Source of the DNA: a virus
Virus record (IMG/VR): IMGVR_UViG_3300029922_000007
Span: 64,001 to 128,000 of that record
Length of the DNA: 64,000 bases
Direction: 5' to 3' (one strand)
Each line of letters starts with the position of its first letter. Positions within the stretch are counted from its first letter, which is position 1. A model generated the notes under the pieces. The model saw only the letters and a list, made by a program, of their open reading frames with translations. It made no database searches and was not told the DNA's origin. A program made the translations under genes and the position numbers. Shown here piece after piece: positions 21,519 to 63,094 of this stretch.

Positions 21519-21543
21519 CTTTGGTCTCTATTAAGAGTAGGAT
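21515..21543 (+). promoter_or_regulatory. Sigma-70-type promoter, probably leaderless
   Basis: TTGACT-17-TAGGAT; ATG 21550 follows after 6 nt. Confidence 0.6.
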
Positions 21544-21549
21544 TTAGCT

Positions 21550-44447: not shown

Positions 44448-45327
44448 AAATATTTGATTTCCTAGGCCTTTTCTTCAATTTATTGGATCTACGGCCTATA
44501 ACCTTAGTACCATTAAAGGTGGCGATAGCGTATAGGTATCGCTCTTCTAATAAGATTGTGGGTTGGTCCTCATCTGCAAAAACCCAAACATGCTGTCCAG
44601 CGGACTTACTCTCCTTGAATAGGCAAGCCCCTCTTATTGCTGTAGAATGAGCGTCGATAGTTTTTTGGGCTACGAAACAGGACGGAAATTCTATAATTGA
44701 GCCATCGACTAAAGACTTACCTATAATAGCCCTGGATTGGTCATTGTTTCCGCGTTTTTTGGCCATTAATCTTCTTCGTTCCATCTCCTCCACATTAAAT
44801 TCGGATTTATGCATCCAAACCCAGCCACCGCAAGAAATTGCCTGCTGAGTTCTCTTCCCACAAATAGAAACCGATAGTAGACAACATTTTCCGATATTTT
44901 TATAGTTAAACCCATCTAGGGCCGTATCTTTCCCACACGAGTATTCTTTAATCTCACCAGTCTCTATAGACATTCCTATAATTGGTTTCTTAGAGGATTC
45001 TCCTATTTTTCTTTTTGCCTCTTCCGTATGCTTTACTGGGGGAGCGTCATAGCCGCCCTTTTTAAGGTTATATAGGCGATGTTTTTCGTTTTCTAAGGTA
45101 AATATTTCTGCGGCTTCCATCTCCGCAATAGTTGAGAATTTCTGCCTTATGTGATACTTAAAAGCGCCTACTCCGAATTCGTTGTATGCTTCTTGCAACT
45201 TATAGTTGTAGTGTTCATTTCTTTCCAATGATTTTCTGTGGGCAGACCAACGTCGTTCGATCCTACCCTTGGTAATTCCGGCGTAGCCCATTCCGTTAAC
45301 AGTATTCGTAATCTCGTATAGAAACAT
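44425..45327 (-). CDS. GIY-YIG homing endonuclease with NUMOD repeats
   Basis: FLYEITNTVNGMGYAGIT..RRWSAHR..E..YN; KHTEEAKRKIG. Confidence 0.88.
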   Translation of the reverse strand: MFLYEITNTVNGMGYAGITKGRIERRWSAHRKSLERNEHYNYKLQEAYNEFGVGAFKYHIRQKFSTIAEMEAAEIFTLENEKHRLYNLKKGGYDAPPVKHTEEAKRKIGESSKKPIIGMSIETGEIKEYSCGKDTALDGFNYKNIGKCCLLSVSICGKRTQQAISCGGWVWMHKSEFNVEEMERRRLMAKKRGNNDQSRAIIGKSLVDGSIIEFPSCFVAQKTIDAHSTAIRGACLFKESKSAGQHVWVFADEDQPTILLEERYLYAIATFNGTKVIGRRSNKLKKRPRKSNIYGSIKHS

Positions 45328-47485: not shown

Positions 47486-48736
47486 GTGGGAGTAAGTAGG
47501 ATATCTGATAAACAACATTACGAAAACTTAAAAGATTGTGTTGAAAAACGCGGTGGTAAGCTAGTATCTGAAAAATACTTAGGATCTAGAATAAAGCTAA
47601 CCATAGACTGCGGTAAGGGGCACGAATGGGACTCTATACCCCGAAATATAATCGTTCTGAAGTCTTGGTGTCCGTTTTGCGCTAAAACCAGAACTCCTGG
47701 GATTGAAGGTATGCAGGAATTGGCTCAAGGTCAGAATCTTGTGTGCTTAAATAAATTTAAAAAGGGGGAAGAAAACACTTTTCAGTGGAAATGTTTGTTG
47801 TGTGGCGACACCTTCATAAGAAGGTTGAGCCATATTAGAAGCAGACCCGGTTGTTCCAATTGTAAGGCTAGAAATTTAGGCGAAAGGGTTTGTAGGCTAT
47901 CTTTTGAGGCAATCTTTGAATCGAAATTCCCCAATACACACATGTCATGGCTTATAAACAATAACGGAAATACGCTAACCCTAGATGGGGTTAATACCGA
48001 TCTTAAGATAGCATTTGAGCATCAAGGAGAACAGCATTTTAAATTTAAAAAACACTTTCATAGAAAGGAAGGCGCTCTAGAAGATATTATACGGAGGGAT
48101 AATTTGAAGATTAAGCTTTGTGAGGAAAATGGATATAAATTAGCAATAGTGCCAGACCTAATCTGTGTAGGAAAAATATTTTCCTCTATAGAGTCAGGAC
48201 AATCCCTTATCCCCATTCCCGAACCGATTTTATTGGCCTGTAAGAACGCTGGAATAATACTACCAGACAGCGTAAGATCGATACTGTTGGACTTAAAGAA
48301 AATTACCGGAAAAGAAAGCGATCAAATACTGGAATCTCTCAAAATTCATGCAAAAAATGGTGGGTTTAGTATACCTGACTGTCTTATTTATAGCATGCAC
48401 GATACTCCAATAAAAGCTATTTGCTATAAGTGTGAGTACGAGTGGAACACAACACCTACAAGAATAAAAGTGGGAAAGGCGTGTCCTAGATGTGCTGGGA
48501 CGTTAAGGCTAGAAATAGGTTGGTTCAAACAAGAAGCGGAAAGGCGCGGCGATGTCCTTTTATCTACTCAGTACAACGGCCTATCGAGCTTTATCGAAGT
48601 AAAATGCGGCAAATGTAGCCATATTAGGAAAGTGCTAGCGCAAAGCTTTAGAAAGGGGCATGGTTGCAAAAAGTGTTCAGATAAAGAAGGCGCCAAGAAA
48701 AGATTAGCAAATCAGCTCAGGTCAAGAGGCCAATAA
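47486..48736 (+). CDS. Homing endonuclease, same family as 29890..31062
   Basis: CGKGHEW...WCPFC repeats; GERVCR; LTLDG...IAFEHQGEQHF. Confidence 0.82.
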   Translation: MGVSRISDKQHYENLKDCVEKRGGKLVSEKYLGSRIKLTIDCGKGHEWDSIPRNIIVLKSWCPFCAKTRTPGIEGMQELAQGQNLVCLNKFKKGEENTFQWKCLLCGDTFIRRLSHIRSRPGCSNCKARNLGERVCRLSFEAIFESKFPNTHMSWLINNNGNTLTLDGVNTDLKIAFEHQGEQHFKFKKHFHRKEGALEDIIRRDNLKIKLCEENGYKLAIVPDLICVGKIFSSIESGQSLIPIPEPILLACKNAGIILPDSVRSILLDLKKITGKESDQILESLKIHAKNGGFSIPDCLIYSMHDTPIKAICYKCEYEWNTTPTRIKVGKACPRCAGTLRLEIGWFKQEAERRGDVLLSTQYNGLSSFIEVKCGKCSHIRKVLAQSFRKGHGCKKCSDKEGAKKRLANQLRSRGQ

Positions 48737-49152: not shown

Positions 49153-51084
49153 TTATGGTCCGTAAACATAGTCAACTTCCGAGTAAACAGTTCCATATTT
49201 ACCCAATCCGATGTCGTTAGGATACAGGATCGTAAAATTTACCGTAACGCCAGCAGCCACAACCGAACCAATAATTGTTTGGCAGTAGGACCTAGCGTTC
49301 GCTGTGTCTGTGAGATATCCTTGATAGTAGGAGCCGTCGCTTGGCAAAACGATCGGCGCTTTAGAGGTAACCAAAAGAACCGAAGTTCCAACTGGATGAT
49401 CTTTTTGAATGAAATATGCTGGACTAACAAGAAGAGTCCCAGAACTTGGGGCAGCTATATAAGGAATGGGACCTTCCTGATTTTCTCCGCCATAGTCAAA
49501 AATAAAGTACCCGCTTGCGTCTGGGAATCCTACAGAAGACCCGACTGTAATGACGTGACTAGTCTCGCCGTTGACATCTTCTGTCAGGGTAGTGCTAGCG
49601 CCACCGATCGTAAAACCTTGGCTCGGATCAAAAATATAGGGTCCTAGCGTTATTGGCAAACTCGGTCCGGCATCTGCGATGGTAGTTGGATCGACCACAG
49701 TCATCGTAACGACGTTATCTACTACAGTATAGGTCAGAGTTGGAAGAACCGCACTAACAGCATCAAAAACCTTAGCGGCGACAGTGCCTGGCAAATCCTC
49801 GCTTCCAATATTGACTTCAATCCCAGTGTATCCATTTGGAGCAGGATCCGTATTTCCACCATCGACATTAAGCCAACCATAGTACTGGAACATCGACCCT
49901 AAATCGTCTATCAAATAGTAATCTGCTATACCGGTACTAGGATAGAAACTTCCTGCTTGCAGAACTAATTGTACCACGGGCTGTTCTGTAACCCCATGCA
50001 GGTGCATTGAACCGATCCTGCTTCTTTCGATTATCTTTGTTGTAGCGGGCAAAAATATCTGTAGGGTATTGGCCTGAACTTGATAAACTGCAGCATAGTA
50101 TTGCTTATTTAGGATAGTTTCTCTAACTGGTGTGTAGAATAAAACAGCAGTATCTGTTCCCTGCACTACAATTCCAGTACTTCCAAGTGGACTATAGATT
50201 TGAAAATACGCAATGTCTACAGCCCCACCTTGGGATGATATAATAGGATACGATCCTTCGTTACTAGAAGAAGCGAACCCTCCACCAAAAATATTCACGT
50301 ACTGCTGAGGTTCAACCACTCCAAGATTTGGGTCTGCTCCACCTGTCCAAGTAAATCTTAAATTCCCGCCTGGTTGTTGACTGATAGTCCACTGAGTTGA
50401 AAAATTGCCCCCAGCTGGGACTGTTGCACTAAATGAAAGTACGTTTTCTGCTCTACCACCTAAGACTGTAATGGAAGAAGAAGCTCCAATAGTGCTAGAT
50501 ACTAATTGAACATAGTTTCCATTGCCATCATTATTTACGATCGCACTACCAGAAACACCCAAACGGCTCAATCCAATAGAAATAGCGTTTGCGATTTCCT
50601 GCGCACTTGCTGCAGCGATACTAGTAAACTGACTTGCATGAAAAGTAACAGTACTGGTATTTGCGCCATCAAAGTTAACGATTAGGGTGTCGCCGTCTTG
50701 CAAATTATAGGGCTCTAAGTTTTGAGCGTTAGAGGTGGCTTTTACGAATTCATCGCCAAACACAATGTCCAGGATGTTATTGATTAGATCTCGTACTTGC
50801 TTTCTATTTTTAACTTGAATACCCAAAGCACTGAAGATGGTATCACTAAGCCCAATAGTAGGATCTCTGGTGATCCCATAGTTGGCCAAACGAAGGTCTA
50901 GAAAGGCTCCTTGGGCAGTACCGATATAGAGAGAATCGTTAACTGCAGCGGCTGAATTCACCAAATAAGTACTGCACGAGGATGCAATAGCATTAAGAAT
51001 TGCTGTAGTATTAGGCCCATTAATATATTGGCTAAGATACTGTCTTAACTTTTTATATTCTGTTGCTGTATCAGTGACTGCCAT
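49153..51084 (-). CDS. Baseplate wedge protein (gpI-like N-terminus)
   Basis: TAQGAFLDLRLANYGITR; ends VVAAGVTVNF; follows the J-like gene. Confidence 0.7.
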   Translation of the reverse strand: MAVTDTATEYKKLRQYLSQYINGPNTTAILNAIASSCSTYLVNSAAAVNDSLYIGTAQGAFLDLRLANYGITRDPTIGLSDTIFSALGIQVKNRKQVRDLINNILDIVFGDEFVKATSNAQNLEPYNLQDGDTLIVNFDGANTSTVTFHASQFTSIAAASAQEIANAISIGLSRLGVSGSAIVNNDGNGNYVQLVSSTIGASSSITVLGGRAENVLSFSATVPAGGNFSTQWTISQQPGGNLRFTWTGGADPNLGVVEPQQYVNIFGGGFASSSNEGSYPIISSQGGAVDIAYFQIYSPLGSTGIVVQGTDTAVLFYTPVRETILNKQYYAAVYQVQANTLQIFLPATTKIIERSRIGSMHLHGVTEQPVVQLVLQAGSFYPSTGIADYYLIDDLGSMFQYYGWLNVDGGNTDPAPNGYTGIEVNIGSEDLPGTVAAKVFDAVSAVLPTLTYTVVDNVVTMTVVDPTTIADAGPSLPITLGPYIFDPSQGFTIGGASTTLTEDVNGETSHVITVGSSVGFPDASGYFIFDYGGENQEGPIPYIAAPSSGTLLVSPAYFIQKDHPVGTSVLLVTSKAPIVLPSDGSYYQGYLTDTANARSYCQTIIGSVVAAGVTVNFTILYPNDIGLGKYGTVYSEVDYVYGP

Positions 51085-51093
51085 AAATTTCCC

Positions 51094-54000
51094 TTATGTT
51101 AGTAACGATACACTTATATCACTAAGTTGAACGACGAATGCTTTTTGGCCAGTAGCTAATACAATTTCGTCATTGTTTACATTATATGCTGGACTCACCA
51201 TCACAACGCTGGTCACACCAGGGATCAGCCTTACAGTTTCCACGATAGAACTCAAGTCAATACTAACTCCCAAGGGATTCGATTCAATCAAGGAGTACAC
51301 TGAAGCTTGGATCTGCTGAGTAATCTGGCTGAACGAAACACCAATATTAGTTCTTATGGCCAAAGAAACTTTAACTCTGAAATCGAGAGGTTCTCTGATA
51401 AAAATATTAGTACCAGCCGCCGAGACTCCTGGGTAGCTGATTGGATCACGTGGATCGCCATAGATTACTCGATTTGATTCACCGATCAAACCCGTATCGT
51501 AGTTATACGAATCTATTCCAAGTCTAATCGTTGTTGGAAAGTTTAATTTTCCAAGTGCAGTCATAGTAACACCAGCGCTCAGATCGATTTTTTCATATTG
51601 GGCAGATGTATTGAAAACGATATCGTTAAAGCTGGTAGTTCCTGGCTCAGATGCAACATATGCAACCTGTTTATAGCCGGTGTACTTGATACCTTCTTGC
51701 ACAGAGAGAGATGAAAAATTACCAGCAACATTCGTATCGTATTGAGTAGAAATTACACCAGATACAACGACAGATGTTGGACTCAAAACCTGCAAGATAT
51801 TATAGGTTCCAGAATTGCCTGCTCCAAGAACGGTTCCATTAACGACAAACTTATCTCCGGGAACGGCAGCTTCGTATGGATAGAATTGAATCTGAGGACG
51901 ATCTACGGAGAAAGTTACAGATGAGATTCCAGACTGTACCACAGCGGAAGGATTAACGACCGTCAAGAATGGGGTTTGTCCGGTTTGAGTTACCACAAAG
52001 CTGAATGCGGCAGGCATCGAAACATCAACAGGAACATGGGTCGCGGCTGCAACAGTAGCAGTTACAGTAACGACATTCCCACTTACAGAATGGGTCATCA
52101 AGGCCAAAGCTGAAAGGGCAGTATTGGTCTTAGTGGCAACCGTAGCTGCCGTATCTGGAGTAACACCACCAACGACGGTCACTTCGATACCAGTAAAACC
52201 AGCAGGAGCCGGATCAGTATTTGAGCCACCAGATACATTATACCAAACGTAGTACTTATTAGCGTTTCCACCGTTCCAAATTTCGAAGTAGTCTCCAGGA
52301 CCAGTCGATGGGAAGGTTATAGCTGGGGGCATTGTAAATTGAACAATTTGTTGCTGTGAAGGTCCAGATTGTTTTACAGTGAAGCTTCCTTGATTTGGGG
52401 TAGAGAAACCGGTTCCAAAAGTAACCACATCGCCTGGTTGGGCAACCCCTAAGAATGGAGCAGTTCCAGTTCCAGTCCAACTGAGAGTTTCGATCCCTCC
52501 AGAAACAGAAACATTAAATACAGTAGTAGCATCGTATCCAGTAGAAATAGTACCTGCAGTGCAGGTTACTTCTTCTTCTACAGAGTTAGCATTTTCATAC
52601 CAAACACTATCGTTGTTTTCACGAATGACTCGATATTCACCTTGATTGAGGGGGCTGAAGGGGGAAGCTAAAATCATCGTGTCGCCTTCAGAAACAGATG
52701 ATGTAGCGGTGAAGTCTCCAGCTAGTACAATAGTCCCATTTTCAACTACTACGGATGGATTAGAAACGGTAAAGGACAATCCATCTGGAGATACTCCAGT
52801 TACAAAGAATGTCCCGTTATTGCCAGCGTTCGCCATCCTCGTAATGGTAATCAAGTCTCCAATAGAGAGACCGGCAAAGTTGGCATTGCCAGCAGGTCCA
52901 GGAGGGGCTGACTGTGTGTTAATGGTTGCTGTATCGCTTAAGGTAACCGCTGCAGTCAAGGCGATTAGGGACCCATTTACGATGCCGCCAAGAGTGTTGA
53001 TGATGCTTGCCTGAGCTACAATATTACCTTCAAAGGTTCCAGCACTTCCACTATTAATGGTAGCAGATGAACCCACAATCCAGAAGATGTCTGCTGCAGT
53101 AGCCCCACCAGTCAAAACCATAGTTGGAACCCCACCAGCTCCAGTTGTGAGGGTAGACGCCGCATAAATGATGTATTGTCCTGCACCATTAAAAGTCAGG
53201 GTTGCAGGACCCGATGTGGCCAAGTTAAACGTCCCGCTAGATTCCTTATAATTCCCAGGAGTCAAAACTACTCCATCGAGATCTGCAGAAATAGCAGTTC
53301 CGGCCAACCCAAGAGTTTGCATGCTAGTATATGCTGCTAGAGCATCATTTTGGGCGGTATTTGCTGCTGAGTTAGCCAAGTTAGTAGAGCCAGTAACGGT
53401 AAAAGTGCCGGTAACAGTAGATCCAGGATATTCACCCAAATTCCCATTAACTACGCTGGTTCCAACACTATTAGTGATGGCAGAAGATGCCAAGATCCCA
53501 TAGGTAGCTGCTGACGCTAAAGGGCTTGGAGGTGGGGTTGGAGTTGGAACAGAGGTGTACGTACCATCAGAAGATACGTTTACGGTCCAATTCCCAGTAT
53601 CGTTAAAATTCACTGAAGAGCTAAAGTCGGGAGAAGTTCCAACCCCATTCCAGCTAAGGCAGGTCAACAATCCTTGTTTTTCTACCCTGAAAGTATCTCC
53701 TACAACCCTAATACCGCTTCTAGGAGCGCCAAAGTAGAGTTGCGCAGTTTCTTGGTTCAGGAGTATGATCGTAGATTGTCCATCTATCGGCGTATTTTGT
53801 AGAACGGTAACACTCGTGTTATTGCTGATCCCCGTATCTTTCGTTTGATAGTTTGCCGCTTGGAGTCTGAACCATTGATCGCTAGCTACTGCTTGACTGG
53901 CGATGCTGTTAGCGGAGATGGACATCTCATTGTTACCAAGTAGCTCCCCAGAAGTCAATACTGGAACGACATATTCGTTACCACTTCCGCCTACGATTTG

Positions 54001-57000
54001 GATAGCTCCGACAGATCCCAATGTTTCCGTTGCGAGTTGGAGTTTGGTTCCACGATCGACCACTTCTACAGTTCCAACGGTAGTAAACCCAGTTACAGCC
54101 AAGATAGACCAAAGCCTTTGGACTTGATCCATAGTAGTTGGAATAAGTCTGACTTCATCTCCACTTGTAAAGAAGCTATAACCTGTATCGCTAGGGTAGG
54201 TAAGTGGTTCTTTAAGGGTAAATTGTGGATTTCCAGTAACGTTGGAGCTTGCAATCCAGTTAATCCCATCTTTTAGGAAGTAGAATGGATGTGTAAATCC
54301 GCTATCTTCGAAAGTACTCAAAGCGATAATGCCAGATCCAGTAGTTCCGCCGTCATTTACGATCGTGGAAGTAAAGTACTGTTTTAGATTTGCATTGATA
54401 TAGGTATTTATTTGTGCTGCCGTAGTTGGGGTTGCAATATAAAAAGTAATCCCGTTTAGAATGGTAGTAACTACTCCAGTTTGATTTACGGCGGTACCGG
54501 TTGGGACTTGAACACTAAAGGATGTAGAAGTTGGAGTAAATCCTACTGCAGAAGATACCTTGAATGTTCCAGTGTTTGCGATGTTAAATCCGGTCGATGA
54601 CAAGATCGTAACGTACTCTCCACCAGACAAGAACAGGGCTGGGTTGCCAGGACCGGAAAGGGTAAAGGCCGAGAAAGCAATCGTAGAATCGCCAGTTCCG
54701 GAAGTCTTGGTTAAGATTCCAGACGCAAGAGGCGGCCCACCAGCGCTCATTGCCGTTATCGTCGTACCAACAAGCGTAACCTTAGTCGCGGTGACAGTGA
54801 ACGTTTGGCCATTACTCGTATAGGTCGCGCCAATAGTTGCAGCGGCTGCCGTTGGGACAGTGAAAGTATACACTCCGTCCCAATTATAGGTTACTTGATC
54901 TGTCCCAGCAGTAGGGGTATTAGGGGTTACCGTTACGTTCCAAAGAGTGCTTGGCGCAATAGAAGATGCAATTGGTGCTCCGGACTGTAGGCCGATCGAA
55001 ACACTTACTTCATTGTTAGAAGTGACAGTAACCGTAGAATTAATGGGTTGATTGGCAGAAGTAGGGTAGACATAGGAAACATTTACCGCTTCACCGCTTC
55101 GGCCCCAAAGGGTGGACCTGATCAAAAGCGCTGTTTGAGCATTTGATCCCTGAAGTACAAATTTTGGTTGCAATAGGACCTTGAAGTTTGAGAAATCAAA
55201 GCCAGCAAAGTTTGTGGCAAAGGAAGCAGTAGGGCCAGCATCCACATCGTATGCGTTGAAACTATAATCGTTAGCGGGCCAAGTGCTGTTAACTATGGCT
55301 CTCCTGTAAAGAGGCATAGTATAGGTTTCGCCAGCAGTATTGTTGTCTACGATGGTAACTACCGTATCGTTATATCCAAAGTCGAGTGGGTTGGCCACAT
55401 AGTACCTATCAGCGATTCTAAGACGTCTAACGTTTGGATACTCTGGGAGGATGGTAATTGCGGTTCCAGAAGTTGCCCACATTTGAACATTTTCTTCAGA
55501 AGGCTGTTCGTCATCAATAAGGCCAGTTCCAGCAGTAGTAAGGGTGGTTCCAGCTATGATGGTGGTACCTACCGTGAAGAAAATTCCGTTGTTAGAATAC
55601 ACAGCCCCGGAAGTTGCGTTTGCAGAGGTAGTCGTAAAGACAAATTGTCCTGGAGCAGGCGATGTAAACGCAGAGAAAGTAATCGTTGAATCTCCGGTTC
55701 CAGAAACTTTGGTAAGAACTGGGGATCCAGAAGAAGGCTGTGAGTTGACTACTGCTGCAGCGCTTAAAGTTACAGCGGCAGTCAAGGCAATTAAAGATCC
55801 GTTAACTGTTCCGCCGAGGGTATTGGTGATGGAGGCCTGCGCTATGATGTTACCTTGGAAGGTTCCAATATTCCCGCTATTGATGGTAGCTGAGCTGCCT
55901 ACAATCCAGAAGATGTTCTTTGCTAAAGCCCCACCAGAGAGGACCATGGTTGGAACGCCACCAGCACCGGTAGTAAGGGTAGAAGCGGTGATAATGATGT
56001 ACTGTCCTGCCCCATTAAATGTAAGAGTTGCAGGACCAGAGGTAGCTAAAGTCGCTGCACCGGAAGAGAAGCTATATACGCCTGGAGTCAGGGTTTGACC
56101 GTCCAAGGCGGAAGGAATGACAGTCCCTGGAGCTTCTGCTGCCATGGTAGTATAAGCGGCCAAGGCGTCGTTTTGGGCGGTATGGGCCGCGCCATTAGCT
56201 AAGTTTGTAGCTCCAGTAACCGTAAAAGAACCGGTAACGGTAGAGCCAGGATATTCACCCAAGCTGCCGTTAACAGTGCTAGTCCCGACGCTATTGGTGA
56301 TAGCGGAAGCCGCCAAGATACCATAATCGGCGGCTGAAGCTAGTGGGCTCGTAGAAGGACCGCCAGTAAGAGAGGGCGAGCTACCATATGGGTTCAGGAA
56401 ATTGATAATTTCATTTGGACCGAATTGACTCAAAGATCTGGTGGACGTGAAGTTGGTTAGATATGTATCGATAGGTTCAGCATAGGAATCAGCACTGATC
56501 GTAGAATGAAAGAAAAGTGGTAATTCGGCAGTAGTAGCCTGGGTTTCATAGAACGCTACAAGGGCGTCCTGACTAGAGCTATTAGCCTGAGTGGTAAATC
56601 CAAGAGCTTGTCCTTCGGCATCAGCCGTAACAATGGTAAGCTCGCCTTCAGTATTGAGGGTGTTGGTAGTAACTACGATATTCGTATTGTCGAATACAGT
56701 GAAGGTGGCTTCGTCCGTTTGAGCTTGGAGTTCAGCGGCAATAACATCCAATGTACTGGTCCCAGACGTTACTTCGAACTTCTGAGGAACGTTGTTGGTT
56801 CTAACAACTACTAAACCCTGAACATAGAGGGCGTTCGTTACTGGAGTTACCAGGGCAGCTTCAGCGGCTGTGACCTTAATAGTCAGAACGGATCCGGTTG
56901 CGGAATGAACTCTTCCTTCAAGTTGGTCAGTATCGGGAATTTCGGCAGACCAAATGATGACGTAGTCTCCGGGAAGAACATTCGAAAATGAATTAGCTCC

Positions 57001-59334
57001 AGAAGAAGTGTAGCTAACCAAATCTCCTGAGACAGAAACGGAAAGATTAGATCCGGATTGGATGGTTGGAATGATTACTTCTGGAGAATCGATTAGGATC
57101 CAAACATGGGCGTTAGAGGTGAGCGTTACTGATCCAGAAGGAATGGTGATGCCTTTAATGTTGGCTTGAGTTACGAGAGTGCCTGCGGAAAGCTTATCTC
57201 CTTTAACCAAGGGCTTGACCAACTGAATCTGAGCGGTATTTCTGTCCAAAATATAGTCTGAAGCTACCCCAGTGGAGGTGAGGTCGGTGACGCTGATCAT
57301 TCCCTTAGCAATCAAAGAGCTTGGATTAGCTACGGTATTTACGACCGTAACTTGAGCGCGATTTACCGCGCCAAGATTACTGGTGAATTCGATGGTGGAC
57401 CCAACAGGGGTAGCAGTAACACCGGTAAGAAGTTTATTGAAGACGTTGACCCAAGATTGAATGCTGTTTGAGGAAGAGACGGTTTGATAAGTACCTTCAG
57501 CGACAAATTCAGCATCGGTGACAGTATAGGTCGTTGGTTGGGTTCCATCTACTGAAAGACTGAGAGTTTCGCCATTAGCAATAGTAGCGGACCAAAGACT
57601 CTGTGACTCAGTAAAGATAGAAGCAGTAGATCCATCTTCAGTGAGAAGGATTCCGTTTTTGTAGAGTCTGAGAGTTTTGGCGACGTTGGACGGGAATTGG
57701 AGTGCGAGGTTTGCATCGGTTACCAGGGAAGAGCTTGGGGGTTTAACTTGGATAGTATTGATAGTTTGGGAAATAGGACGAATGACGACAAAAGTTCCGT
57801 CGCCAGAAGTAACCGCTTCATAGGCAAGTAGGGTGTCGGCATTAATGCTAGCGGTAACTTCGTAGGCCGTAGCAGATCCTGGATTCTGAAAGTCGGTGGA
57901 AGCGAAAGTGTGCTGATAAGTAACATTCCCAACGATAACTTCCAGGACTTCGCCACCAGAAAGGGCGAATGGGGATGGAGCAACAGTTTCAAGGAGAGCC
58001 TTAGTTACTGAAGTTTGGGTTCCACCAGTTACGAGTTGAAAATATTGTTCGCCGCCAAGAGCAGAATCTACGATGGACTCGATTCCAACACCTAACCACG
58101 TAGCTTCGTAGCCGGAGCCATCATCAACATAAACAATGGTATTGCCCGAAGAATTCAGGATATCCGTGCTAACGATGGTAGCCGAAGAATTAGGGTCTTG
58201 GACCCCGAGCAATGCGCTCTCGATTGCAGTTACGGTCCCTAAGCCAGTAGAAGAAAGTTGAAGCTTGATTCTAATCCTGTACGCATCATCTGTCTCTGTG
58301 TCGGCCCCGGTGGTAAAAGAAACGGGGTTAGTAACTGTAGCATTTGGGAAAGGAGCGCCTGCAAATTCATCAACGGCACCAGCAGGAGCGTTCCCTAGAG
58401 CGCCTGGAAGCATGGCCGTCACAGCCACATTAGTCACGGTCGTTTCGCCATCGAGAATGATGGCCTGCTGAGTTACTGAGAATTGAATGTCTGGAGTGGA
58501 CCCAACACCTGGATCGACTACGACAGTATTGACTGGGATAGTCCTAACGCCACCTTGAGCAAGAATAACGGATTCGTTCAGGTTGTGATACTTAGTGGTT
58601 GGGCTAACCAGGGTAATGGCCCAATAGGAGCCAACTCGAACTGGAGGGGTACTGAAGGTAAAGACGATCCCACCAGCAGTTGCGGTGGCCGGATTGCTGA
58701 TTGTAATTTGGCTACTAGAATCTACTGATTGGATGATGGATCCAGCTACAATGCCGATACCTGAAATAGGGAAGCCAGCGAGTAGGCCAAGAGTCGAAGA
58801 TAGGCCGGAAATGACGTTTGAGAGATTTGCAGTGCTACCAGTGGCAGAAAGGGTTCCGGTGCCATAGGTTAGAGGGCCTTCGATGTCGGAGGTGCCACGG
58901 CCAATATAGAGGCCTCCGGTGGCTGGGAAGAGGGAAGCGTCGGAAACATAGATGGTGGTAGAGCCAATGAGGGGTGGATTCAAGCCAGAATAGATCTTGG
59001 CAGAAATCTTCTGAAATGAAGTATCAATTACCGTTACAAATCCAGTAGTTACCTTGGCGGTAAGGCGTGGAATGCCGTATTCTACGCCAAGACGATCTAA
59101 ACTACTGCCCGTAGCCCTATCCAGGGAGAAATCTCGGAGGATAGAGAAGATGTCCCCGCTTGACCTAGCGGCTATCAAACTGACAATTTCAAAAAATTTT
59201 ACATTGGCAGCCGAAACGCTTTGATCGGAAATCCCCAACGATCCCGCATAGCTAGAGAGTGCATTGCCAAGAATCTGTTGGTAGCTCTGGGGCTGTGGGA
59301 GAGATCCATTTTGAGAAGTAGGGGTAGTGGCCAT
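51094..59334 (-). CDS. Giant baseplate J-like wedge protein (2746 aa) with two DUF3494 ice-binding-like domains
   Basis: ATGSSLDRLGVEYGIPRL, GADTETDDAYRIRI, C-terminal LGVSIDLSSIV...IPGVTSV; two inserted IBP-like domains. Confidence 0.85.
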   Translation of the reverse strand: MATTPTSQNGSLPQPQSYQQILGNALSSYAGSLGISDQSVSAANVKFFEIVSLIAARSSGDIFSILRDFSLDRATGSSLDRLGVEYGIPRLTAKVTTGFVTVIDTSFQKISAKIYSGLNPPLIGSTTIYVSDASLFPATGGLYIGRGTSDIEGPLTYGTGTLSATGSTANLSNVISGLSSTLGLLAGFPISGIGIVAGSIIQSVDSSSQITISNPATATAGGIVFTFSTPPVRVGSYWAITLVSPTTKYHNLNESVILAQGGVRTIPVNTVVVDPGVGSTPDIQFSVTQQAIILDGETTVTNVAVTAMLPGALGNAPAGAVDEFAGAPFPNATVTNPVSFTTGADTETDDAYRIRIKLQLSSTGLGTVTAIESALLGVQDPNSSATIVSTDILNSSGNTIVYVDDGSGYEATWLGVGIESIVDSALGGEQYFQLVTGGTQTSVTKALLETVAPSPFALSGGEVLEVIVGNVTYQHTFASTDFQNPGSATAYEVTASINADTLLAYEAVTSGDGTFVVIRPISQTINTIQVKPPSSSLVTDANLALQFPSNVAKTLRLYKNGILLTEDGSTASIFTESQSLWSATIANGETLSLSVDGTQPTTYTVTDAEFVAEGTYQTVSSSNSIQSWVNVFNKLLTGVTATPVGSTIEFTSNLGAVNRAQVTVVNTVANPSSLIAKGMISVTDLTSTGVASDYILDRNTAQIQLVKPLVKGDKLSAGTLVTQANIKGITIPSGSVTLTSNAHVWILIDSPEVIIPTIQSGSNLSVSVSGDLVSYTSSGANSFSNVLPGDYVIIWSAEIPDTDQLEGRVHSATGSVLTIKVTAAEAALVTPVTNALYVQGLVVVRTNNVPQKFEVTSGTSTLDVIAAELQAQTDEATFTVFDNTNIVVTTNTLNTEGELTIVTADAEGQALGFTTQANSSSQDALVAFYETQATTAELPLFFHSTISADSYAEPIDTYLTNFTSTRSLSQFGPNEIINFLNPYGSSPSLTGGPSTSPLASAADYGILAASAITNSVGTSTVNGSLGEYPGSTVTGSFTVTGATNLANGAAHTAQNDALAAYTTMAAEAPGTVIPSALDGQTLTPGVYSFSSGAATLATSGPATLTFNGAGQYIIITASTLTTGAGGVPTMVLSGGALAKNIFWIVGSSATINSGNIGTFQGNIIAQASITNTLGGTVNGSLIALTAAVTLSAAAVVNSQPSSGSPVLTKVSGTGDSTITFSAFTSPAPGQFVFTTTSANATSGAVYSNNGIFFTVGTTIIAGTTLTTAGTGLIDDEQPSEENVQMWATSGTAITILPEYPNVRRLRIADRYYVANPLDFGYNDTVVTIVDNNTAGETYTMPLYRRAIVNSTWPANDYSFNAYDVDAGPTASFATNFAGFDFSNFKVLLQPKFVLQGSNAQTALLIRSTLWGRSGEAVNVSYVYPTSANQPINSTVTVTSNNEVSVSIGLQSGAPIASSIAPSTLWNVTVTPNTPTAGTDQVTYNWDGVYTFTVPTAAAATIGATYTSNGQTFTVTATKVTLVGTTITAMSAGGPPLASGILTKTSGTGDSTIAFSAFTLSGPGNPALFLSGGEYVTILSSTGFNIANTGTFKVSSAVGFTPTSTSFSVQVPTGTAVNQTGVVTTILNGITFYIATPTTAAQINTYINANLKQYFTSTIVNDGGTTGSGIIALSTFEDSGFTHPFYFLKDGINWIASSNVTGNPQFTLKEPLTYPSDTGYSFFTSGDEVRLIPTTMDQVQRLWSILAVTGFTTVGTVEVVDRGTKLQLATETLGSVGAIQIVGGSGNEYVVPVLTSGELLGNNEMSISANSIASQAVASDQWFRLQAANYQTKDTGISNNTSVTVLQNTPIDGQSTIILLNQETAQLYFGAPRSGIRVVGDTFRVEKQGLLTCLSWNGVGTSPDFSSSVNFNDTGNWTVNVSSDGTYTSVPTPTPPPSPLASAATYGILASSAITNSVGTSVVNGNLGEYPGSTVTGTFTVTGSTNLANSAANTAQNDALAAYTSMQTLGLAGTAISADLDGVVLTPGNYKESSGTFNLATSGPATLTFNGAGQYIIYAASTLTTGAGGVPTMVLTGGATAADIFWIVGSSATINSGSAGTFEGNIVAQASIINTLGGIVNGSLIALTAAVTLSDTATINTQSAPPGPAGNANFAGLSIGDLITITRMANAGNNGTFFVTGVSPDGLSFTVSNPSVVVENGTIVLAGDFTATSSVSEGDTMILASPFSPLNQGEYRVIRENNDSVWYENANSVEEEVTCTAGTISTGYDATTVFNVSVSGGIETLSWTGTGTAPFLGVAQPGDVVTFGTGFSTPNQGSFTVKQSGPSQQQIVQFTMPPAITFPSTGPGDYFEIWNGGNANKYYVWYNVSGGSNTDPAPAGFTGIEVTVVGGVTPDTAATVATKTNTALSALALMTHSVSGNVVTVTATVAAATHVPVDVSMPAAFSFVVTQTGQTPFLTVVNPSAVVQSGISSVTFSVDRPQIQFYPYEAAVPGDKFVVNGTVLGAGNSGTYNILQVLSPTSVVVSGVISTQYDTNVAGNFSSLSVQEGIKYTGYKQVAYVASEPGTTSFNDIVFNTSAQYEKIDLSAGVTMTALGKLNFPTTIRLGIDSYNYDTGLIGESNRVIYGDPRDPISYPGVSAAGTNIFIREPLDFRVKVSLAIRTNIGVSFSQITQQIQASVYSLIESNPLGVSIDLSSIVETVRLIPGVTSVVMVSPAYNVNNDEIVLATGQKAFVVQLSDISVSLLT
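52915..53526 (-). repeat. DUF3494 ice-binding-like domain, copy 2
   Basis: YGILASSAITN..TSVVNGNLG..AQNDALAAY..LTPG.Y..IFWIVGSSAT..FEGNIVAQASI..NGSLIALTAAVTL. Confidence 0.88.
55745..56349 (-). repeat. DUF3494 ice-binding-like domain, copy 1
   Basis: YGILAASAITN..AQNDALAAY..LDGQTLTPGVY..NIFWIVGSSAT..FQGNIIAQASIT..NGSLIALTAAVTL. Confidence 0.88.
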
Positions 59335-59350: not shown

Positions 59351-60334
59351 TTAAAGGATCCCCATCTCCTTAAGTTTTTTCTTATCCCAAAGCTCAGAGT
59401 TTGGAAATTGGGTAAGAAACCAATCCCATTTAATTTGGGACTTCGGTCTCATATATCCCTTAATTTCTACCCACTTATTTTCATTAATTAGAAAAAGATC
59501 TGGTAGGTAGGTGGAAGTTTTGCCGGTTATAGCTGATGCCGGTAGGGTGAAGGTTTGAGGCTGCCATAGGAAATCTATTTTCCTCTCATTCAGATAATCA
59601 ACGACCTTAGGCTCGTAAGAGGCCTGACAAACAAGTTCTTCCCCTGTTTTCCAATGAAATTTTATGACGCTGTTGCTTTGTGTTCTAGCAGCTTTTAGGG
59701 AAACATCTTTATTTTGCATTGGATTGGGAAACCCGTACTTTTCCAAATTAGTTTTCATAAATTTTTGTCTAGTTCTAGCGGGATGTCCGTGTCCTTTAAA
59801 GGCGCTAGTGACTAAGCATTCGAAGGCCCCATGCTCTTTATCTATGAAAGATGCTTTGTCGTTGATTACGGTATAGGTATCCTCTACTATAGTAATGGTG
59901 TCTCCATGAACATCCGATATTCTTTTCCTTACTTCTGTAATGGGAATTCTGTACGTAAGCGGATGATTAGTGCCGTTAACTACTACGTTTTTAACTGAAG
60001 CGTCCCATGGACCGTGAGTTTTATTTATAAACGTTGCATCACTTCTTGAATTTTTGTAGGTCTCTTCGACTATTGTAACGTCCTCCCCATGCATTTTAAA
60101 AAGTCTACGTTTTACCTCTTCTATTTTTTGTGTTTTCTTTTCAGTGCTATCTTTGGGGTGGCCGTGACCGTCTAGGATATTCTTAACCCATGGATTCCAG
60201 GGTCCGTGTTTCTTATGTATGAAAGTTGCTTTAGCTAATATTTCCGTATAGGTGCTTTCCACTATGGAGATTGTGTCTCCATGTGCCCTGAATATCCTAT
60301 TTTTAATCTCTTCGATGGGGATCCTTTTACTCAT
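59351..60334 (-). CDS. Homing endonuclease with three N-terminal repeats and a PD-(D/E)XK core
   Basis: Three copies of HG...IVE.TY.....A.FI.K.HG; TNLEKYG; YLPDLFL...WVEIKGY. Confidence 0.85.
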   Translation of the reverse strand: MSKRIPIEEIKNRIFRAHGDTISIVESTYTEILAKATFIHKKHGPWNPWVKNILDGHGHPKDSTEKKTQKIEEVKRRLFKMHGEDVTIVEETYKNSRSDATFINKTHGPWDASVKNVVVNGTNHPLTYRIPITEVRKRISDVHGDTITIVEDTYTVINDKASFIDKEHGAFECLVTSAFKGHGHPARTRQKFMKTNLEKYGFPNPMQNKDVSLKAARTQSNSVIKFHWKTGEELVCQASYEPKVVDYLNERKIDFLWQPQTFTLPASAITGKTSTYLPDLFLINENKWVEIKGYMRPKSQIKWDWFLTQFPNSELWDKKKLKEMGIL

Positions 60335-60346
60335 ACGATCCTTATA

Positions 60347-63094
60347 TCATTGATTCGCTAGCTGATTACCTAGTTGGAATCCGATTGGAAAAACTCCGGC
60401 GACCCCCGCAATACCCACTGCAAGATTAATGCTAAGTGATGGACCTTGCTGGTTAATTTGTAGGCCCGTAATCCCACTAAATCTTGGATCAGAAGTAATA
60501 GCGTTCGTAATCGAATTATAGATATCTTGTGCTTTGAAGTCGGCGATACTGGATCCCGGCTTTACCGCAGCACCAAATGTTGGATTGGCGTAACTGGTCC
60601 CAGCAACACTGGACATGGTGGTCGTCAAAGCCTGCACGAGATTTGGGATCCCTGCTGCAAGTCTAAAATCTCCAGTATTGGTAACGGCAAGGTCCGCACC
60701 ACTTCCATTACTGTTGGGCTGTAAAAGCCAATCGACCTTCGAAAGTGCGACTAAATCCACATTTGCCACGGAAGTTGGAATTGATATTTGGTCGTAGGCT
60801 GGAGTTTGCAAATCTGAAGGGATAAAGATCACATTCGAACTATTGACGGTGCCAGGCAGGTACGCTTTCAGGTAGGCTCCGTCCGCGATTTTATAGATTT
60901 CCAGGTTCGCATCTCCATCTAAAGTCAACAAGAAGCTCGTCTGTGAAAGCGTAACGATATCCAGGATAGTTCTAGTGGTTGGGCTCTGAACCGAAGAATT
61001 GATGGAAACTAGCTGGCCTACAACTAAATTGGTACTGTCTCCGATGACTATATTCCTACCGTCGGCGTTGGATAGCAAATTATAAACAAAGCCCGTCTGA
61101 TCGATGTAGGGTTCGACTAAGTTATTTAGTGTTGCAATCTCAAGCCATCTCTGCGCATCTCCCAAATATCTGAGAGCGATCCCTTCCATATCCAAACCAA
61201 ACGGGACTGGCTGTTGAACCTTAGAATTCGGAATAGAGAATGGGATACCTGAAGCTTGAGCTAAACTCTGTACGTACTCCATGTTATTTAGGGTATCCTG
61301 ACTATCCAATTGTTGGGTTGCCGTCAGAATATCGTACGATTGCAGAAGCTCATAGAAAGTTTGCAGGATACTATATTGGTCTAAGGTGATAACCTGATTG
61401 CTAGTGTTTGGTGTAAATGGAGTATTATAGATTTTGCTATAGTACTGGTTTCCAGCCCCGAAAGAACTCTCAAGCTGCGTGACCATTGTTAGGATCGTTC
61501 CGCGCATTGCCTTGAGTTGTGCTACAGAAAATGAGTTTACCGTATCTACTTCGTTTTCTAGAGCCGCTTGTTGCTTTGAATTGAGTTTTAGGCTATTCAC
61601 TGGAACCTGGCTGAAAAGCATTGGATTTAGTTGTGGTTTAACGAAGATATTATAGGCTGGATCGACTACGGAGGCTGGAGAGATAGGAGAAGAGGTTACC
61701 CGCATTCTACCGCCTATATGAGGTTTCACGGGACCTGGCTGAGATCCTGCGAAGTTTTGTGGTGATAGCCCTTCGTTATCTCCAACAGAGGCCTTCAGAG
61801 CTTTAATTGCCCCGAGTACCCCTCCATTAGTGGCTCCAGCGCCCGTCAGGTTATTTAGGGTAAGCGTACTCATGAACTGAGTGATAGTGCTTGAAGCGTC
61901 GTTAATAAGCTGTGAGGGTAAGTCGGAAGCAGCAATGGCAACTCCGGCAAGATCTTTAACGAATAGTCCAGTTTGACGGATTATATTCAGGATATTGTCA
62001 ACATCGGAACGAACAGAGCCAATCAGAGCGGCAGAAGCTGCAGCAGTATTTTGTGCGGCAGTAATGGTTCCTAATATTTGTTGGAGAACACCTGGAGTGA
62101 TTGGAATCAAAGTGCTTGGAGTATTTGCAAAATAATTGTTTAGGTCAATTCTACGCCAAGCTTTCAGCTGGAGATTGTAATTGATCTCCATTGGCTTATT
62201 TACATTTTCGTTCCAGGTAAAGGCTACTGGCGAGACCACAAAGGATTGTTTTTGTTTAGGAATGTCAAAGACTAGCCGCCAACTTGCGTTTACCGGATTC
62301 TTTTTAGCTTCTGCATACTGTTCTAGAAATTGTTGAAGGGCTATGGCCTGATAATATCCGGTTAGTTGTAGACCGTTACCTTGATCGCCAGGATCGCCTG
62401 GACTTACCGTTTTTGGTTTATTTGCATTTCCGGTTAGAGCGCTAACCACTGATGAGAATTGGGTAGCTACGTTTTGGGCAGCAGCGATAGTACCTCCAAA
62501 GAGCGACTGCAGCCCGCTTGTTAGGGCGCTTGCAGGACTACCGGGAGGGGTAATGATGCTGTGTCTATTAGGCCAAACACCAAAAGTCCCCTGAATAGAT
62601 ATATTCTTAAATCTTACTCCGGAATGCTCTTCGAGGATACCCCTCAAGGTCGCCGACGTATTAATAGCATAATTATCGGTAATATTAAGTTGTTGTGGGG
62701 TAATTGGTAAATTAAAGATCCACTGTGAATCGTCGATTGGCGTGATTGAGAGAGTTGAAACTGATTCTCCGGGAAGGGCCGTTACTTGCACCGTAGGAGT
62801 AATTGTTCCTCCAACAACGCCCCCTTTACCCTTATTAGCTCCCGTATCCCACACTATAAGCCTATAAGGCAGTAGTTTGTTCCAAAGTGTCCCATCCGGC
62901 TTGAAAAAAGAAAAAAAGGCGCTTTGGACTAAGGTCTTCGAATTTTGCCAAGGAAAAGAGCTGCCTTTAGCGTTATGGATCTGCGCGGCACTAATGGACG
63001 CCACAGAAAGAGGATTAAGGGATTGTGGGTTTGGTAGGCGCGTTTGAATTGGCCCTGCGGTGAAGCCGAAATTACTGTCTGTGCCGATGGTCAT
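60347..63094 (-). CDS. Fused baseplate protein (tube-initiator-like, LysM-like and gp25-like domains)
   Basis: LPITPQQLNITD..TLRG; IALRYLGDAQRWLEIATLNNL; DFRLAAGIPNLVQAL...NPTFG...DPRF. Confidence 0.72.
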   Translation of the reverse strand: MTIGTDSNFGFTAGPIQTRLPNPQSLNPLSVASISAAQIHNAKGSSFPWQNSKTLVQSAFFSFFKPDGTLWNKLLPYRLIVWDTGANKGKGGVVGGTITPTVQVTALPGESVSTLSITPIDDSQWIFNLPITPQQLNITDNYAINTSATLRGILEEHSGVRFKNISIQGTFGVWPNRHSIITPPGSPASALTSGLQSLFGGTIAAAQNVATQFSSVVSALTGNANKPKTVSPGDPGDQGNGLQLTGYYQAIALQQFLEQYAEAKKNPVNASWRLVFDIPKQKQSFVVSPVAFTWNENVNKPMEINYNLQLKAWRRIDLNNYFANTPSTLIPITPGVLQQILGTITAAQNTAAASAALIGSVRSDVDNILNIIRQTGLFVKDLAGVAIAASDLPSQLINDASSTITQFMSTLTLNNLTGAGATNGGVLGAIKALKASVGDNEGLSPQNFAGSQPGPVKPHIGGRMRVTSSPISPASVVDPAYNIFVKPQLNPMLFSQVPVNSLKLNSKQQAALENEVDTVNSFSVAQLKAMRGTILTMVTQLESSFGAGNQYYSKIYNTPFTPNTSNQVITLDQYSILQTFYELLQSYDILTATQQLDSQDTLNNMEYVQSLAQASGIPFSIPNSKVQQPVPFGLDMEGIALRYLGDAQRWLEIATLNNLVEPYIDQTGFVYNLLSNADGRNIVIGDSTNLVVGQLVSINSSVQSPTTRTILDIVTLSQTSFLLTLDGDANLEIYKIADGAYLKAYLPGTVNSSNVIFIPSDLQTPAYDQISIPTSVANVDLVALSKVDWLLQPNSNGSGADLAVTNTGDFRLAAGIPNLVQALTTTMSSVAGTSYANPTFGAAVKPGSSIADFKAQDIYNSITNAITSDPRFSGITGLQINQQGPSLSINLAVGIAGVAGVFPIGFQLGNQLANQ

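What the first reader, a model, noticed from the sequence alone, without database searches (positions are those of the whole stretch)
52915..56349. Two ice-binding-like (DUF3494) domains grafted into a phage baseplate wedge protein
Seen: two highly similar ~200 aa domains with the hallmark DUF3494 pattern (GILA.SAITN, AQ.D...AY, LTPG.Y, IFW.VGSSAT, F.GNI.AQ.SI, NG.L.A.TAAVTL). Each follows a Pro-rich linker (GPSTSP; PTPTPPPSP) inside the baseplate-J-like protein. Known: DUF3494 beta-solenoids are the commonest microbial ice-binding fold and are usually secreted or surface-anchored. Inference: the virion baseplate displays multiple copies, which could tether particles to ice, protect them through freeze-thaw, or be repurposed as a host or surface adhesin.
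Basis: partly seen in the sequence, partly recalled or inferred. Interest (0 to 1): 0.82.

Follow-up and report, generated by a model that had tools for sequence, protein, structure and literature searches.

The report
Ice-binding-type domains on a phage tail
A 166-kb soil or peat phage related to Myxococcus phage Mx1 has two genuine ice-binding-type (DUF3494) domains spliced into its giant baseplate protein and more in its tail sheath, so the particle is studded with a fold known from microbial antifreeze proteins; whether it binds ice is untested.

Summary
Window 51094-59334 (-) is one 2746-aa Baseplate-J/T4-gp6-like gene. It holds two PF11999 (DUF3494) domains, at aa 994-1204 and 1935-2146, each after a Pro-rich linker. 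An AlphaFold model (pLDDT 95) superposes on solved ice-binding proteins at TM about 0.8.

Both domains are lineage-specific inserts. Orthologues of 2189 aa in two related phages, and the 1925-aa orthologue in Myxococcus phage Mx1, lack them. Only 13 of 122 homologues carry them, at the same two sites. The two copies are old paralogues under purifying selection (76% aa, 70% nt, dN/dS 0.12).

The same genome also puts the domain into its tail sheath (fold-confirmed) and a 441-aa protein. The nearest relatives of the domain are almost all on phage contigs. The nearest relative of the gene comes from a boreal peat-bog virome.

Mapped onto the AnpIBP ice-binding site, the flat B-face is an all Ser/Thr/Ala/Gly surface with a conserved Thr ladder. 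Ice binding is therefore plausible but unproven; a non-ice adhesin role is nearly as likely. First-reader notes of this scan flagged similar virion DUF3494 domains in two other genomes. I found no paper describing DUF3494 in virion proteins; viral copies have only been called auxiliary metabolic genes.

The parts
51094..59334 (-). Giant baseplate J / T4 gp6-like wedge protein gene (2746 aa, P0001)
   Evidence: ORF. PHROG_6 baseplate wedge subunit E 1.7e-21. More than 200 homologues of 1760-2900 aa carry PF04865/PF26079 and gp47/JayE names. 42.5% identical to the Mx1 'baseplate protein J-like protein'.
55723..56355 (-). DUF3494 (PF11999) domain 1, aa 994-1204
   Evidence: AF2 model pLDDT 95.2. 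Foldseek to 6EIO, 7BWX, 6BG8 and 3VN3 at TM about 0.8. phmmer to PDB ice-binding proteins, E 5.6e-20.
52897..53532 (-). DUF3494 (PF11999) domain 2, aa 1935-2146
   Evidence: 79% identical to domain 1. 89% identical to the site-2 domain of the closest relative P0004.
56344..56364 (-). Pro/Ser linker GGPSTSP before domain 1
53521..53547 (-). Pro-rich linker PTPTPPPSP before domain 2
55519..56379 (-). Insert 1 (aa 986-1272): linker, DUF3494 and a ~65-aa small module. Absent from the 2189-aa orthologues.
   Evidence: MAFFT gap block 986-1272 against P0002/P0003.
52894..53559 (-). Insert 2 (aa ~1926-2147): linker, DUF3494 and a short tail. It replaces about 9 residues of the orthologue.
   Evidence: The flanks align to P0002 up to about aa 1490 and from aa 1500.
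54631..54873 (-). Second copy (aa 1488-1568) of the ~65-aa 'TKxSGTGDSTIxFSAF' module. It is also lineage-specific and is shared with the tail sheath.
   Evidence: Gap block 1504-1568. Similar to the sheath protein aa 114-245. Permuted relative to the copy at 55519-55722.
58639..58851 (-). Lineage-specific insert aa 162-232. The module is shared with the 982-aa protein at 41499-44447.
57982..58551 (-). Conserved gp6/J-like core matched by PHROG_6 (aa 262-451)
52108..52404 (-). ~100-aa module (aa 2311-2409, 'YYVWYNVSGG...') shared with the stand-alone 441-aa DUF3494 protein of the same genome
   Evidence: 57.6% identity over 99 aa.
60347..63094 (-). Upstream baseplate protein (915 aa), part of the same module
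   Evidence: PHROG_975 baseplate protein E 6.3e-18. An equivalent 862-895-aa gene precedes the orthologues.
59351..60334 (-). Homing/HNH-type endonuclease gene wedged between the two baseplate genes (context only)
   Evidence: PHROG_681/559. Absent at this place in L006, L007 and L096.
49153..51084 (-). Conserved downstream 643-aa gene of the baseplate module
   Evidence: A 630-643-aa gene follows the orthologues. Only PHROG_15814, of unknown function.

Best explanation
Shown: the two segments are bona fide DUF3494 beta-solenoid domains. They were inserted through Pro-rich linkers into surface-permissive sites of a giant Baseplate-J/gp6-like wedge protein of an Mx1-like myovirus of about 166 kb. 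They belong to a virion-wide set: every tail-sheath subunit carries a circularly permuted copy, and a 441-aa protein carries another. All copies are kept by purifying selection, and the domain has been shuffled among virion proteins across a clade of peat or soil phages.

Inferred mechanism: the domains are outward-facing adhesion modules whose working surface is the flat, uncharged Ser/Thr/Ala/Gly B-face with a five-to-six-rung Thr ladder. In solved relatives this same face organises ice-like water and binds ice. If the T4 gp6/TssF stoichiometry of two per wedge holds, the baseplate would display about 24 domains and the sheath of the order of a hundred or more. The virion would then be a multivalent ice-binding particle.

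My committed reading is that in seasonally frozen peat this coat binds ice. It would either hold the particle at ice-vein surfaces or locally inhibit recrystallisation. That would protect the metastable sheath and baseplate from freeze-thaw damage. Fold and grafting: confidence about 0.95. Ice as the ligand: about 0.4.
For: Identity: PF11999 scores 175.7 bits in two stretches. The AF2 model has pLDDT 95.2. The 31 Foldseek PDB hits at E<=0.001 are all ice-binding or DUF3494 proteins, TM 0.64-0.81; the next hit has E 0.3.

Insert status: the 2189-aa orthologues lack both domains. Mx1 has no PF11999. 13 of 122 homologues carry the domain, always at the same two sites.

Selection: the two copies show dN/dS 0.12 at dS 1.57, similar to the scaffold at 0.08-0.18.

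Virion-wide display: PF11999 hits three genes of this genome. The 977-aa protein folds as a tail sheath, matching phi812, phiCD508, P1, Mu and T4 gp18 at E down to 6e-19, with an ice-binding-protein-like insert. 20 of 120 sheath homologues carry PF11999. At least 10 IMG/VR contigs hold two or more DUF3494 loci.

B-face: the rows are SAITNS, SGAATL, STLTTG, SSATIN, ASITNT and AAVTLS, plus the loop STVT. They map onto the published AnpIBP ice-binding-site rows. The residues equivalent to S153 and T156, whose Tyr mutants lose 83% of activity, are conserved. The Thr column is 61-100% conserved in 99 phage-type domains.

Habitat: the closest relative P0004 (81% identity, two domains) lies on JAFMOA010001147.1, a vOTU from the SPRUCE peat bog in northern Minnesota (PMC8626947).
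Against: No assay exists, and DUF3494 proteins also occur in non-freezing habitats where they are thought to bind other surfaces (PMC11645318, PMC12337378). The Thr/Ser/Ala face is equally conserved in the soil-bacterial branch of the family, so it does not discriminate ice from other ligands. It may also be partly structural. The face assignment rests on a sequence alignment to 7BWX and not on model coordinates. Habitat is verified for one relative only; the window's own sample is unknown. Most Mx1-like relatives in what appear to be similar environments do without the domain (109 of 122). The copy numbers per virion are inferred from other phages.
Confidence: 0.42

Rival explanations
1. Non-ice adhesin coat. 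The DUF3494 modules act like the Ig-like or Hoc-type decorations of other phages. They would weakly and multivalently bind a periodic non-ice surface, such as host exopolysaccharide or capsule, Sphagnum or plant polymers, humic or mineral particles. This would keep virions where hosts are.
For: DUF3494 is widespread in bacteria from non-freezing habitats and is proposed there to bind other substrates. Display on the sheath as well as the baseplate matches the pattern of general decoration domains and not of receptor-binding proteins. The domain is shuffled among many large proteins like other accessory modules. The nearest cultured relative, Mx1, infects an EPS-rich soil bacterium.
Against: No carbohydrate-binding or enzymatic fold similarity: the best non-ice-binding hits are tapirin and adhesin domains at E about 0.3. 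The face lacks the aromatic residues typical of sugar-binding sites and instead keeps the ice-binding-site residues of AnpIBP. The verified habitat freezes seasonally (plus general knowledge of northern Minnesota).
Confidence: 0.35
2. Host receptor-binding domains. The baseplate copies would recognise a specific host surface receptor and determine host range.
For: They sit in the periphery-forming C-terminal two-thirds of a baseplate protein. They are variable between relatives and exchanged with other genes, as receptor-binding modules are.
Against: The same domain type decorates every sheath subunit, which does not contact the receptor. The putative binding face is nearly invariant across 99 diverged phage domains, whereas receptor-binding surfaces usually diversify. 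dN/dS is 0.12.
Confidence: 0.1
3. Purely structural or stabilising inserts, or selectively near-neutral passenger domains, with no external ligand.
For: Most relatives function without them (109 of 122). The N and C termini of the fold lie together (PMC11645318), which makes the domain easy to insert without harm.
Against: There is strong purifying selection on old paralogues. The domain is retained at several sites and in three genes, recurs across a clade and keeps a conserved exposed face.
Confidence: 0.08
4. Auxiliary metabolic gene that cryoprotects the host cell. This is how PF11999 genes on viral contigs have been read in the literature.
For: PMC11515562 reports three PF11999 'AMGs' on Arctic vOTUs. 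Stand-alone phage genes of about 345 aa exist.
Against: Here the domains are internal parts of a baseplate protein and a sheath protein. They have no signal peptide and cannot be released into or out of the host as free ice-binding proteins.
Confidence: 0.03

Closest known systems
Solved DUF3494 ice-binding proteins: EfcIBP (6EIO), AnpIBP (7BWX), ColAFP (3WP9), FfIBP (4NU2), TisAFP (3VN3/5B5H), LeIBP (3UYU)
   Same: Same Pfam family and fold (34-25% identity, TM 0.73-0.81). [quoted passage not shown] The AnpIBP S153 and T156 equivalents are conserved.
   Different: Those are small secreted proteins of cold-adapted cells with measured ice activity. Here the domain is an internal insert of virion proteins, has no signal peptide and has not been assayed.
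Multidomain DUF3494 'ice adhesins': Shewanella frigidimarina SfIBP_1 (6BG8), Flavobacteriaceae IBPv with tandem DUF3494 (5UYT). By function only: the Marinomonas primoryensis 1.5-MDa RTX ice adhesin.
   Same: DUF3494, or another ice-binding domain, is carried on a large modular surface structure to stick the carrier to ice. Tandem or multiple copies occur.
   Different: The carrier there is a bacterial cell surface; here it is a phage baseplate and sheath. MpIBP uses an unrelated fold.
Baseplate J / gp47 / T4 gp6 family, in particular the 1925-aa 'baseplate protein J-like protein' of Myxococcus phage Mx1 (OR576727.2)
   Same: Orthologous scaffold (42.5% identity over aa 10-518), a similar genome size of about 166-170 kb and the same baseplate gene neighbourhood.
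   Different: Mx1 and most relatives have no DUF3494. This protein is about 800 aa longer because of at least four lineage-specific module inserts.
Phage virion decoration domains (Ig-like, FN3 and Hoc-type, 'bacteriophage adherence to mucus' type)
   Same: Accessory, non-essential, surface-exposed and shuffled modules displayed in many copies on capsid, tail or baseplate. This matches the distribution seen here.
   Different: Different fold. No DUF3494 example was found among named phages: BFVD held none from tailed phages, and Mx1 and S-SKS1 were negative for PF11999.
PF11999 'ice-binding-like AMGs' on Arctic viral contigs (PMC11515562) and DUF3494 proteins of the giant virus Hyperionvirus (BFVD)
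   Same: Virus-encoded DUF3494.
   Different: Those are treated as free proteins or host-benefit genes. Here the domain is part of the particle itself.

Membership tests
DUF3494 / PF11999 Ice_binding | Match to the Pfam HMM above the gathering score | tested here: met
   175.7 bits against 28.7, two stretches covering profile positions 1-207 of 208.
DUF3494 / PF11999 Ice_binding | Discontinuous triangular beta-solenoid with one long alpha-helix packed alongside | tested here: met
   AF2 pLDDT 95.2, helix at domain residues 59-76, about 20 short strands. TM about 0.8 to 6EIO and 7BWX.
DUF3494 / PF11999 Ice_binding | Flat B-face of small Thr/Ser/Ala residues (putative ice-binding site) | tested here: met
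   By alignment to the AnpIBP ice-binding-site rows. The rows are S/T/A/G/N apart from one Leu in the gapped beta-2 row, and the Thr column is 61-100% conserved. Not checked on coordinates.
Functional ice-binding proteins (IBP/AFP) | Measured thermal hysteresis, recrystallisation inhibition or ice adsorption | not testable with these tools
   Needs recombinant protein and ice assays.
Functional ice-binding proteins (IBP/AFP) | Export to the cell exterior (signal peptide or anchor), as in typical microbial ice-binding proteins | tested here: not met
   The domains are internal, at aa 994-1204 and 1935-2146 of a 2746-aa virion protein. Exposure would come through the virion instead.
Baseplate J / gp47 / T4 gp6 wedge protein | Profile match to the family | tested here: met
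   PHROG_6 E 1.7e-21. PF04865 is not detected in P0001 itself at E<=0.1 but is recorded for many homologues, including P0004 at 81% identity.
Baseplate J / gp47 / T4 gp6 wedge protein | Location in a baseplate gene module, and orthology to an annotated baseplate protein of a cultured phage | tested here: met
   The upstream gene hits PHROG_975 baseplate protein. Orthologue of the Mx1 baseplate J-like protein.
Baseplate J / gp47 / T4 gp6 wedge protein | Physical presence in the baseplate (proteomics or cryo-EM) | not testable with these tools
   Uncultured phage.
Contractile tail sheath (for the 977-aa companion protein outside the window) | Sheath fold | tested here: met
   AF2 pLDDT 82.9. Foldseek to the phi812, phiCD508, P1, Mu, A-1(L) and T4 sheaths, E 6e-19 to 1e-5. 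Sequence profiles alone were weak.

The most novel reading that the evidence does not exclude
Mx1-like peat phages build naturally multivalent ice-binding nanoparticles. Roughly a hundred or more DUF3494 faces on the sheath, plus about two dozen on the baseplate, would bind ice or quasi-liquid water. This would either shield the spring-loaded contractile tail from ice-induced triggering and freeze-thaw inactivation, or park virions on ice-vein walls where hosts concentrate in frozen peat. It would be the first structural, virion-borne antifreeze-type function in any virus, and a mechanism for phage overwintering in soil.
Probability: 0.33. Interest if true: 0.85.

Novelty: new variant of a known kind. 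Interest (0 to 1): 0.62.

Why it matters
DUF3494 is the commonest microbial ice-binding fold. In viruses it has so far been read only as a host-benefit accessory gene. Finding it built into the sheath and baseplate of a whole clade of boreal-peat phages gives a concrete, cheap-to-test hypothesis for how soil phage particles survive or exploit freezing. It also gives a natural example of multivalent display, which in engineered systems strongly boosts ice-binding activity. If the ligand is not ice, the same proteins offer a handle on the unknown function of the many DUF3494 proteins from non-freezing habitats. In addition, the locus documents unusually free module shuffling between virion proteins, including circular permutation.

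Tried and rejected
1. tblastn of the domain against 50,697 INPHARED phages gave nothing even at E<=1. Zero chance hits at that threshold suggests the low-complexity filter masked the Thr/Ser/Ala/Gly-rich query, so I do not count this as absence.

2. The claim in PMC11515562 of homologues in Synechococcus phage S-SKS1 was not reproduced. PF11999 found nothing in HQ633071 at E<=0.001.

3. Sequence-only identification of the 977-aa protein failed: PHROGs gave nothing, Pfam gave only PF11999, and a PDB profile search gave nothing. One of 40 homologues hit PF04984. The fold search settled it.

4. Habitat look-ups by run, sample and IMG identifiers found nothing except JAFMOA. From memory I associate SRR71514xx and several of the IMG sample numbers with Stordalen Mire. 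This is unverified and not used as evidence.

5. PHROGs on six long representative proteins that carry the closest domains returned nothing, so I do not claim they are virion proteins.

6. The depolymerase or tailspike-enzyme reading is rejected: no fold match other than ice-binding proteins below E 0.3.

7. The AMG reading is rejected for this locus because of the gene architecture.

8. The default MAFFT alignment misplaced insert 2. It was corrected with local BLASTP.

9. No complex prediction was run, because no protein-protein binding claim is made.


Full report
**What is there**

The finding lies inside a single ORF, window 51094-59334 on the minus strand, 2746 aa. Pfam gives one family, PF11999 Ice_binding, at 175.7 bits (cut-off 28.7) in two stretches. 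PHROGs gives phrog_6 'baseplate wedge subunit' at aa 262-451, E 1.7e-21.

A domain HMM built here places the two DUF3494 domains at aa 994-1204 (window 55723-56355) and aa 1935-2146 (window 52897-53532). The finding's coordinates correspond to aa 996-2140. The copies are 79% identical by BLASTP.

**Fold**

I used a 96-sequence alignment to model domain 1 with AlphaFold2. The model has pLDDT 95.2 and pTM 0.91, with one long helix and about twenty short strands. Foldseek against the PDB returns 31 hits at E<=0.001. All are ice-binding or DUF3494 proteins (6EIO, 7BWX, 6BG8, 3VN3, 4NU2, 3WP9, 3UYU and others), with TM 0.64-0.81. The next hit has E 0.3. Sequence search of the PDB agrees (6EIO, E 5.6e-20).

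**The domains are inserts**

Two IMG/VR contigs carry 2189-aa orthologues (52% identity over the aligned columns) that lack both domains.
- Insert 1 is a clean 287-aa block, aa 986-1272. It consists of the linker, DUF3494 and a small module of about 65 aa.
- Insert 2 is aa ~1926-2147. Its flanks align to orthologue residues ~1490 and 1500. The default multiple alignment had misplaced it.
- Two further lineage-specific blocks, aa 162-232 and 1504-1568, are modules shared with other virion proteins of the same genome.

In the 5.8-billion-protein collection this baseplate protein has more than 200 homologues of 1760-2900 aa, many on contigs of about 160 kb. Their names include gp47/JayE and baseplate J. 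Of the 122 examined, 13 carry DUF3494: nine at both sites and four at site 2 only.

The closest cultured phage is Myxococcus phage Mx1 (169.6 kb). Its 1925-aa 'baseplate protein J-like protein' is 42.5% identical over aa 10-518. Mx1 has no PF11999.

**Selection and history**

The two copies are 76% identical in protein but only 70% in DNA. Fewer than half of the identical residues use the same codon, and dN/dS is 0.12 at dS 1.57. This is comparable with the conserved scaffold compared with a relative (0.08-0.18). They are old paralogues, and both are maintained.

I built a tree of 138 domains (quick IQ-TREE with SH-aLRT support only). It has two parts:
- A large 'phage-type' clade of 99 rows. 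In it, baseplate site-1 domains, site-2 domains and stand-alone proteins of about 345 aa are intermixed.
- A separate branch of 39 rows with Big_5 or Big_3_5 domains. Some of these are named ice-binding family protein of Candidatus Angelobacter.

In this phage the site-1 domain groups with the site-2 type, and not with the site-1 cluster of its nearest relatives. The module has therefore been exchanged between sites and genes.

One stand-alone protein I checked sits among thymidylate synthase, dCMP deaminase and UDG genes on phage-like contigs.

**The coat is virion-wide**

The window is bases 64001-128000 of a 166,169-bp IMG/VR record that CheckV rates complete. PF11999 hits three genes in it. 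The other two are a 441-aa protein and a 977-aa protein.

The 977-aa protein gave no PHROG hit and no sheath Pfam or PDB hit by sequence. Its AlphaFold model (pLDDT 82.9) matches the tail sheaths of phi812, phiCD508, P1, Mu, A-1(L), T4 gp18 and pyocin at E down to 6e-19. It also matches ice-binding proteins over about 140 residues.

In this protein the DUF3494 HMM matches in permuted order. Profile positions 54-211 fall at aa 249-398, and the N-terminal part follows at aa 396-551. This agrees with an earlier first-reader note. Twenty of 120 sheath homologues carry PF11999.

Wider distribution:
- One peptide pattern recovered 167 stretches in IMG/VR, and at least ten contigs have two or more loci.
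- In the 78 loci kept, most domains lie in ORFs of sheath size (850-1100 aa) or larger.
- An exhaustive HMMER search of 1.84 billion representatives found 6871 relatives. The closest include many proteins of 1000-2400 aa. Six of these gave no PHROG hit, so I make no claim about them.

**The putative binding face**

The AnpIBP paper (PMC7277481) lists the B-face rows of the ice-binding site. It shows that S153Y and T156Y cut activity to 17% of wild type. Through the HMMER alignment to 7BWX, the corresponding rows in domain 1 are:
- SAITNS, SGAATL, STLTTG, SSATIN, ASITNT and AAVTLS
- the loop STVT

No residue in these rows is charged or aromatic. The S153 and T156 equivalents (S1147, T1150) are conserved, and the fourth column is a Thr ladder. 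Across 99 phage-type domains that column is 61-100% Thr.

There are caveats. The same holds for the bacterial branch. The face was assigned by alignment and not from coordinates. Conserved Thr residues can also be structural.

**Habitat**

The window's own sample could not be identified. The closest relative, P0004, is 81% identical over the first 960 aa and carries two DUF3494 domains. It lies on JAFMOA010001147.1. PMC8626947 identifies the JAFMOA01 set as vOTUs from the SPRUCE peat bog, Marcell Experimental Forest, northern Minnesota. That bog freezes in winter; this rests on general knowledge and not on a tool result. Names attached to other homologues, such as Sphagnum balticum assembly contamination and Methanoperedens or Leptolyngbyaceae MAG bins, fit wetland habitats.

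**Interpretation**

Shown: the fold, the insert status, purifying selection, multi-protein display and recurrence in a phage clade.

Inferred: the domains are outward-facing adhesion modules that work through the B-face. I favour ice as the ligand at about 0.4, for four reasons:
- The face retains experimentally defined ice-binding-site residues.
- The verified habitat freezes.
- The decorated parts are the metastable contractile machinery.
- Multivalent display is the arrangement that maximises ice affinity.

A non-ice adhesin role is almost as likely, at about 0.35. DUF3494 proteins are common in non-freezing habitats (PMC11645318, PMC12337378), and sheath and baseplate decorations in other phages are general adhesins.

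A specific receptor-binding role is less likely, given the sheath copies and the invariant face. A passenger role conflicts with the selection data. The published AMG reading (PMC11515562) does not fit internal domains of structural proteins.

**Novelty**

Full-text searches found no paper that links DUF3494 or ice-binding domains with phage baseplate, sheath or tail proteins. BFVD holds DUF3494 folds only from the giant virus Hyperionvirus. First-reader notes of this scan flagged similar virion DUF3494 domains in two other genomes; I did not check those.

I rate this a new variant of known kinds: a known fold, and the known habit of decorating virions, combined in a new way with a testable ecological hypothesis.

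Noticed in passing
window 55519-55722 and 54631-54873 (-); also sheath protein aa ~114-245 (L005:124-3057:-): A module of about 65 aa of unknown family occurs in two circularly permuted arrangements. The 'LTKxSGTGDSTIxFSAF' strand is first in one copy and last in the other. The module is shared between the baseplate and the sheath. There is no Pfam or PDB sequence match.
   Followed up: partly
G000 19060-21993 (-), 42 kb upstream of the window (L005:124-3057:-): The tail sheath (fold-confirmed) carries a circularly permuted DUF3494 insert. About one in six sheath homologues in the protein collection carry PF11999.
   Followed up: yes
G000 149914-151239 (-), beyond the window end (L001:1393-2718:-): A 441-aa protein has a complete DUF3494 domain embedded in the 'YYVWYNVSGG' module that also occurs at window 52108-52404. 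Its role in the virion is unknown.
   Followed up: partly
window 59351-60334 (-), 47486-48736 (+), 44425-45327 (-): Three homing-endonuclease genes (HNH and GIY-YIG types) are scattered through the baseplate and tail module. The one between the two baseplate genes is absent at that position in relatives.
   Followed up: no
window 41499-44447 (-) and 40475-41497 (-): Proteins of 982 aa and 340 aa with no PHROG or Pfam match lie in the tail module. The 982-aa protein shares a module of about 97 aa with baseplate aa 134-230. In a relative the equivalent position holds a 1403-aa DUF5122 protein.
   Followed up: no
L011-L013 (JGI 3300030044, 3300037434; ENA ERZ27249537): A stand-alone 346-aa DUF3494 protein is found on at least 23 contigs, next to thymidylate synthase, dCMP deaminase and UDG genes. 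Some homologues of this size are labelled 'VgrG' by JGI, which looks like a mis-annotation.
   Followed up: partly
phages collection, tblastn: A Thr/Ser/Ala/Gly-rich query gave no hit at all at E<=1 in 2.3 Gb. Nulls from this tool for such queries are probably filter artefacts.
   Followed up: no
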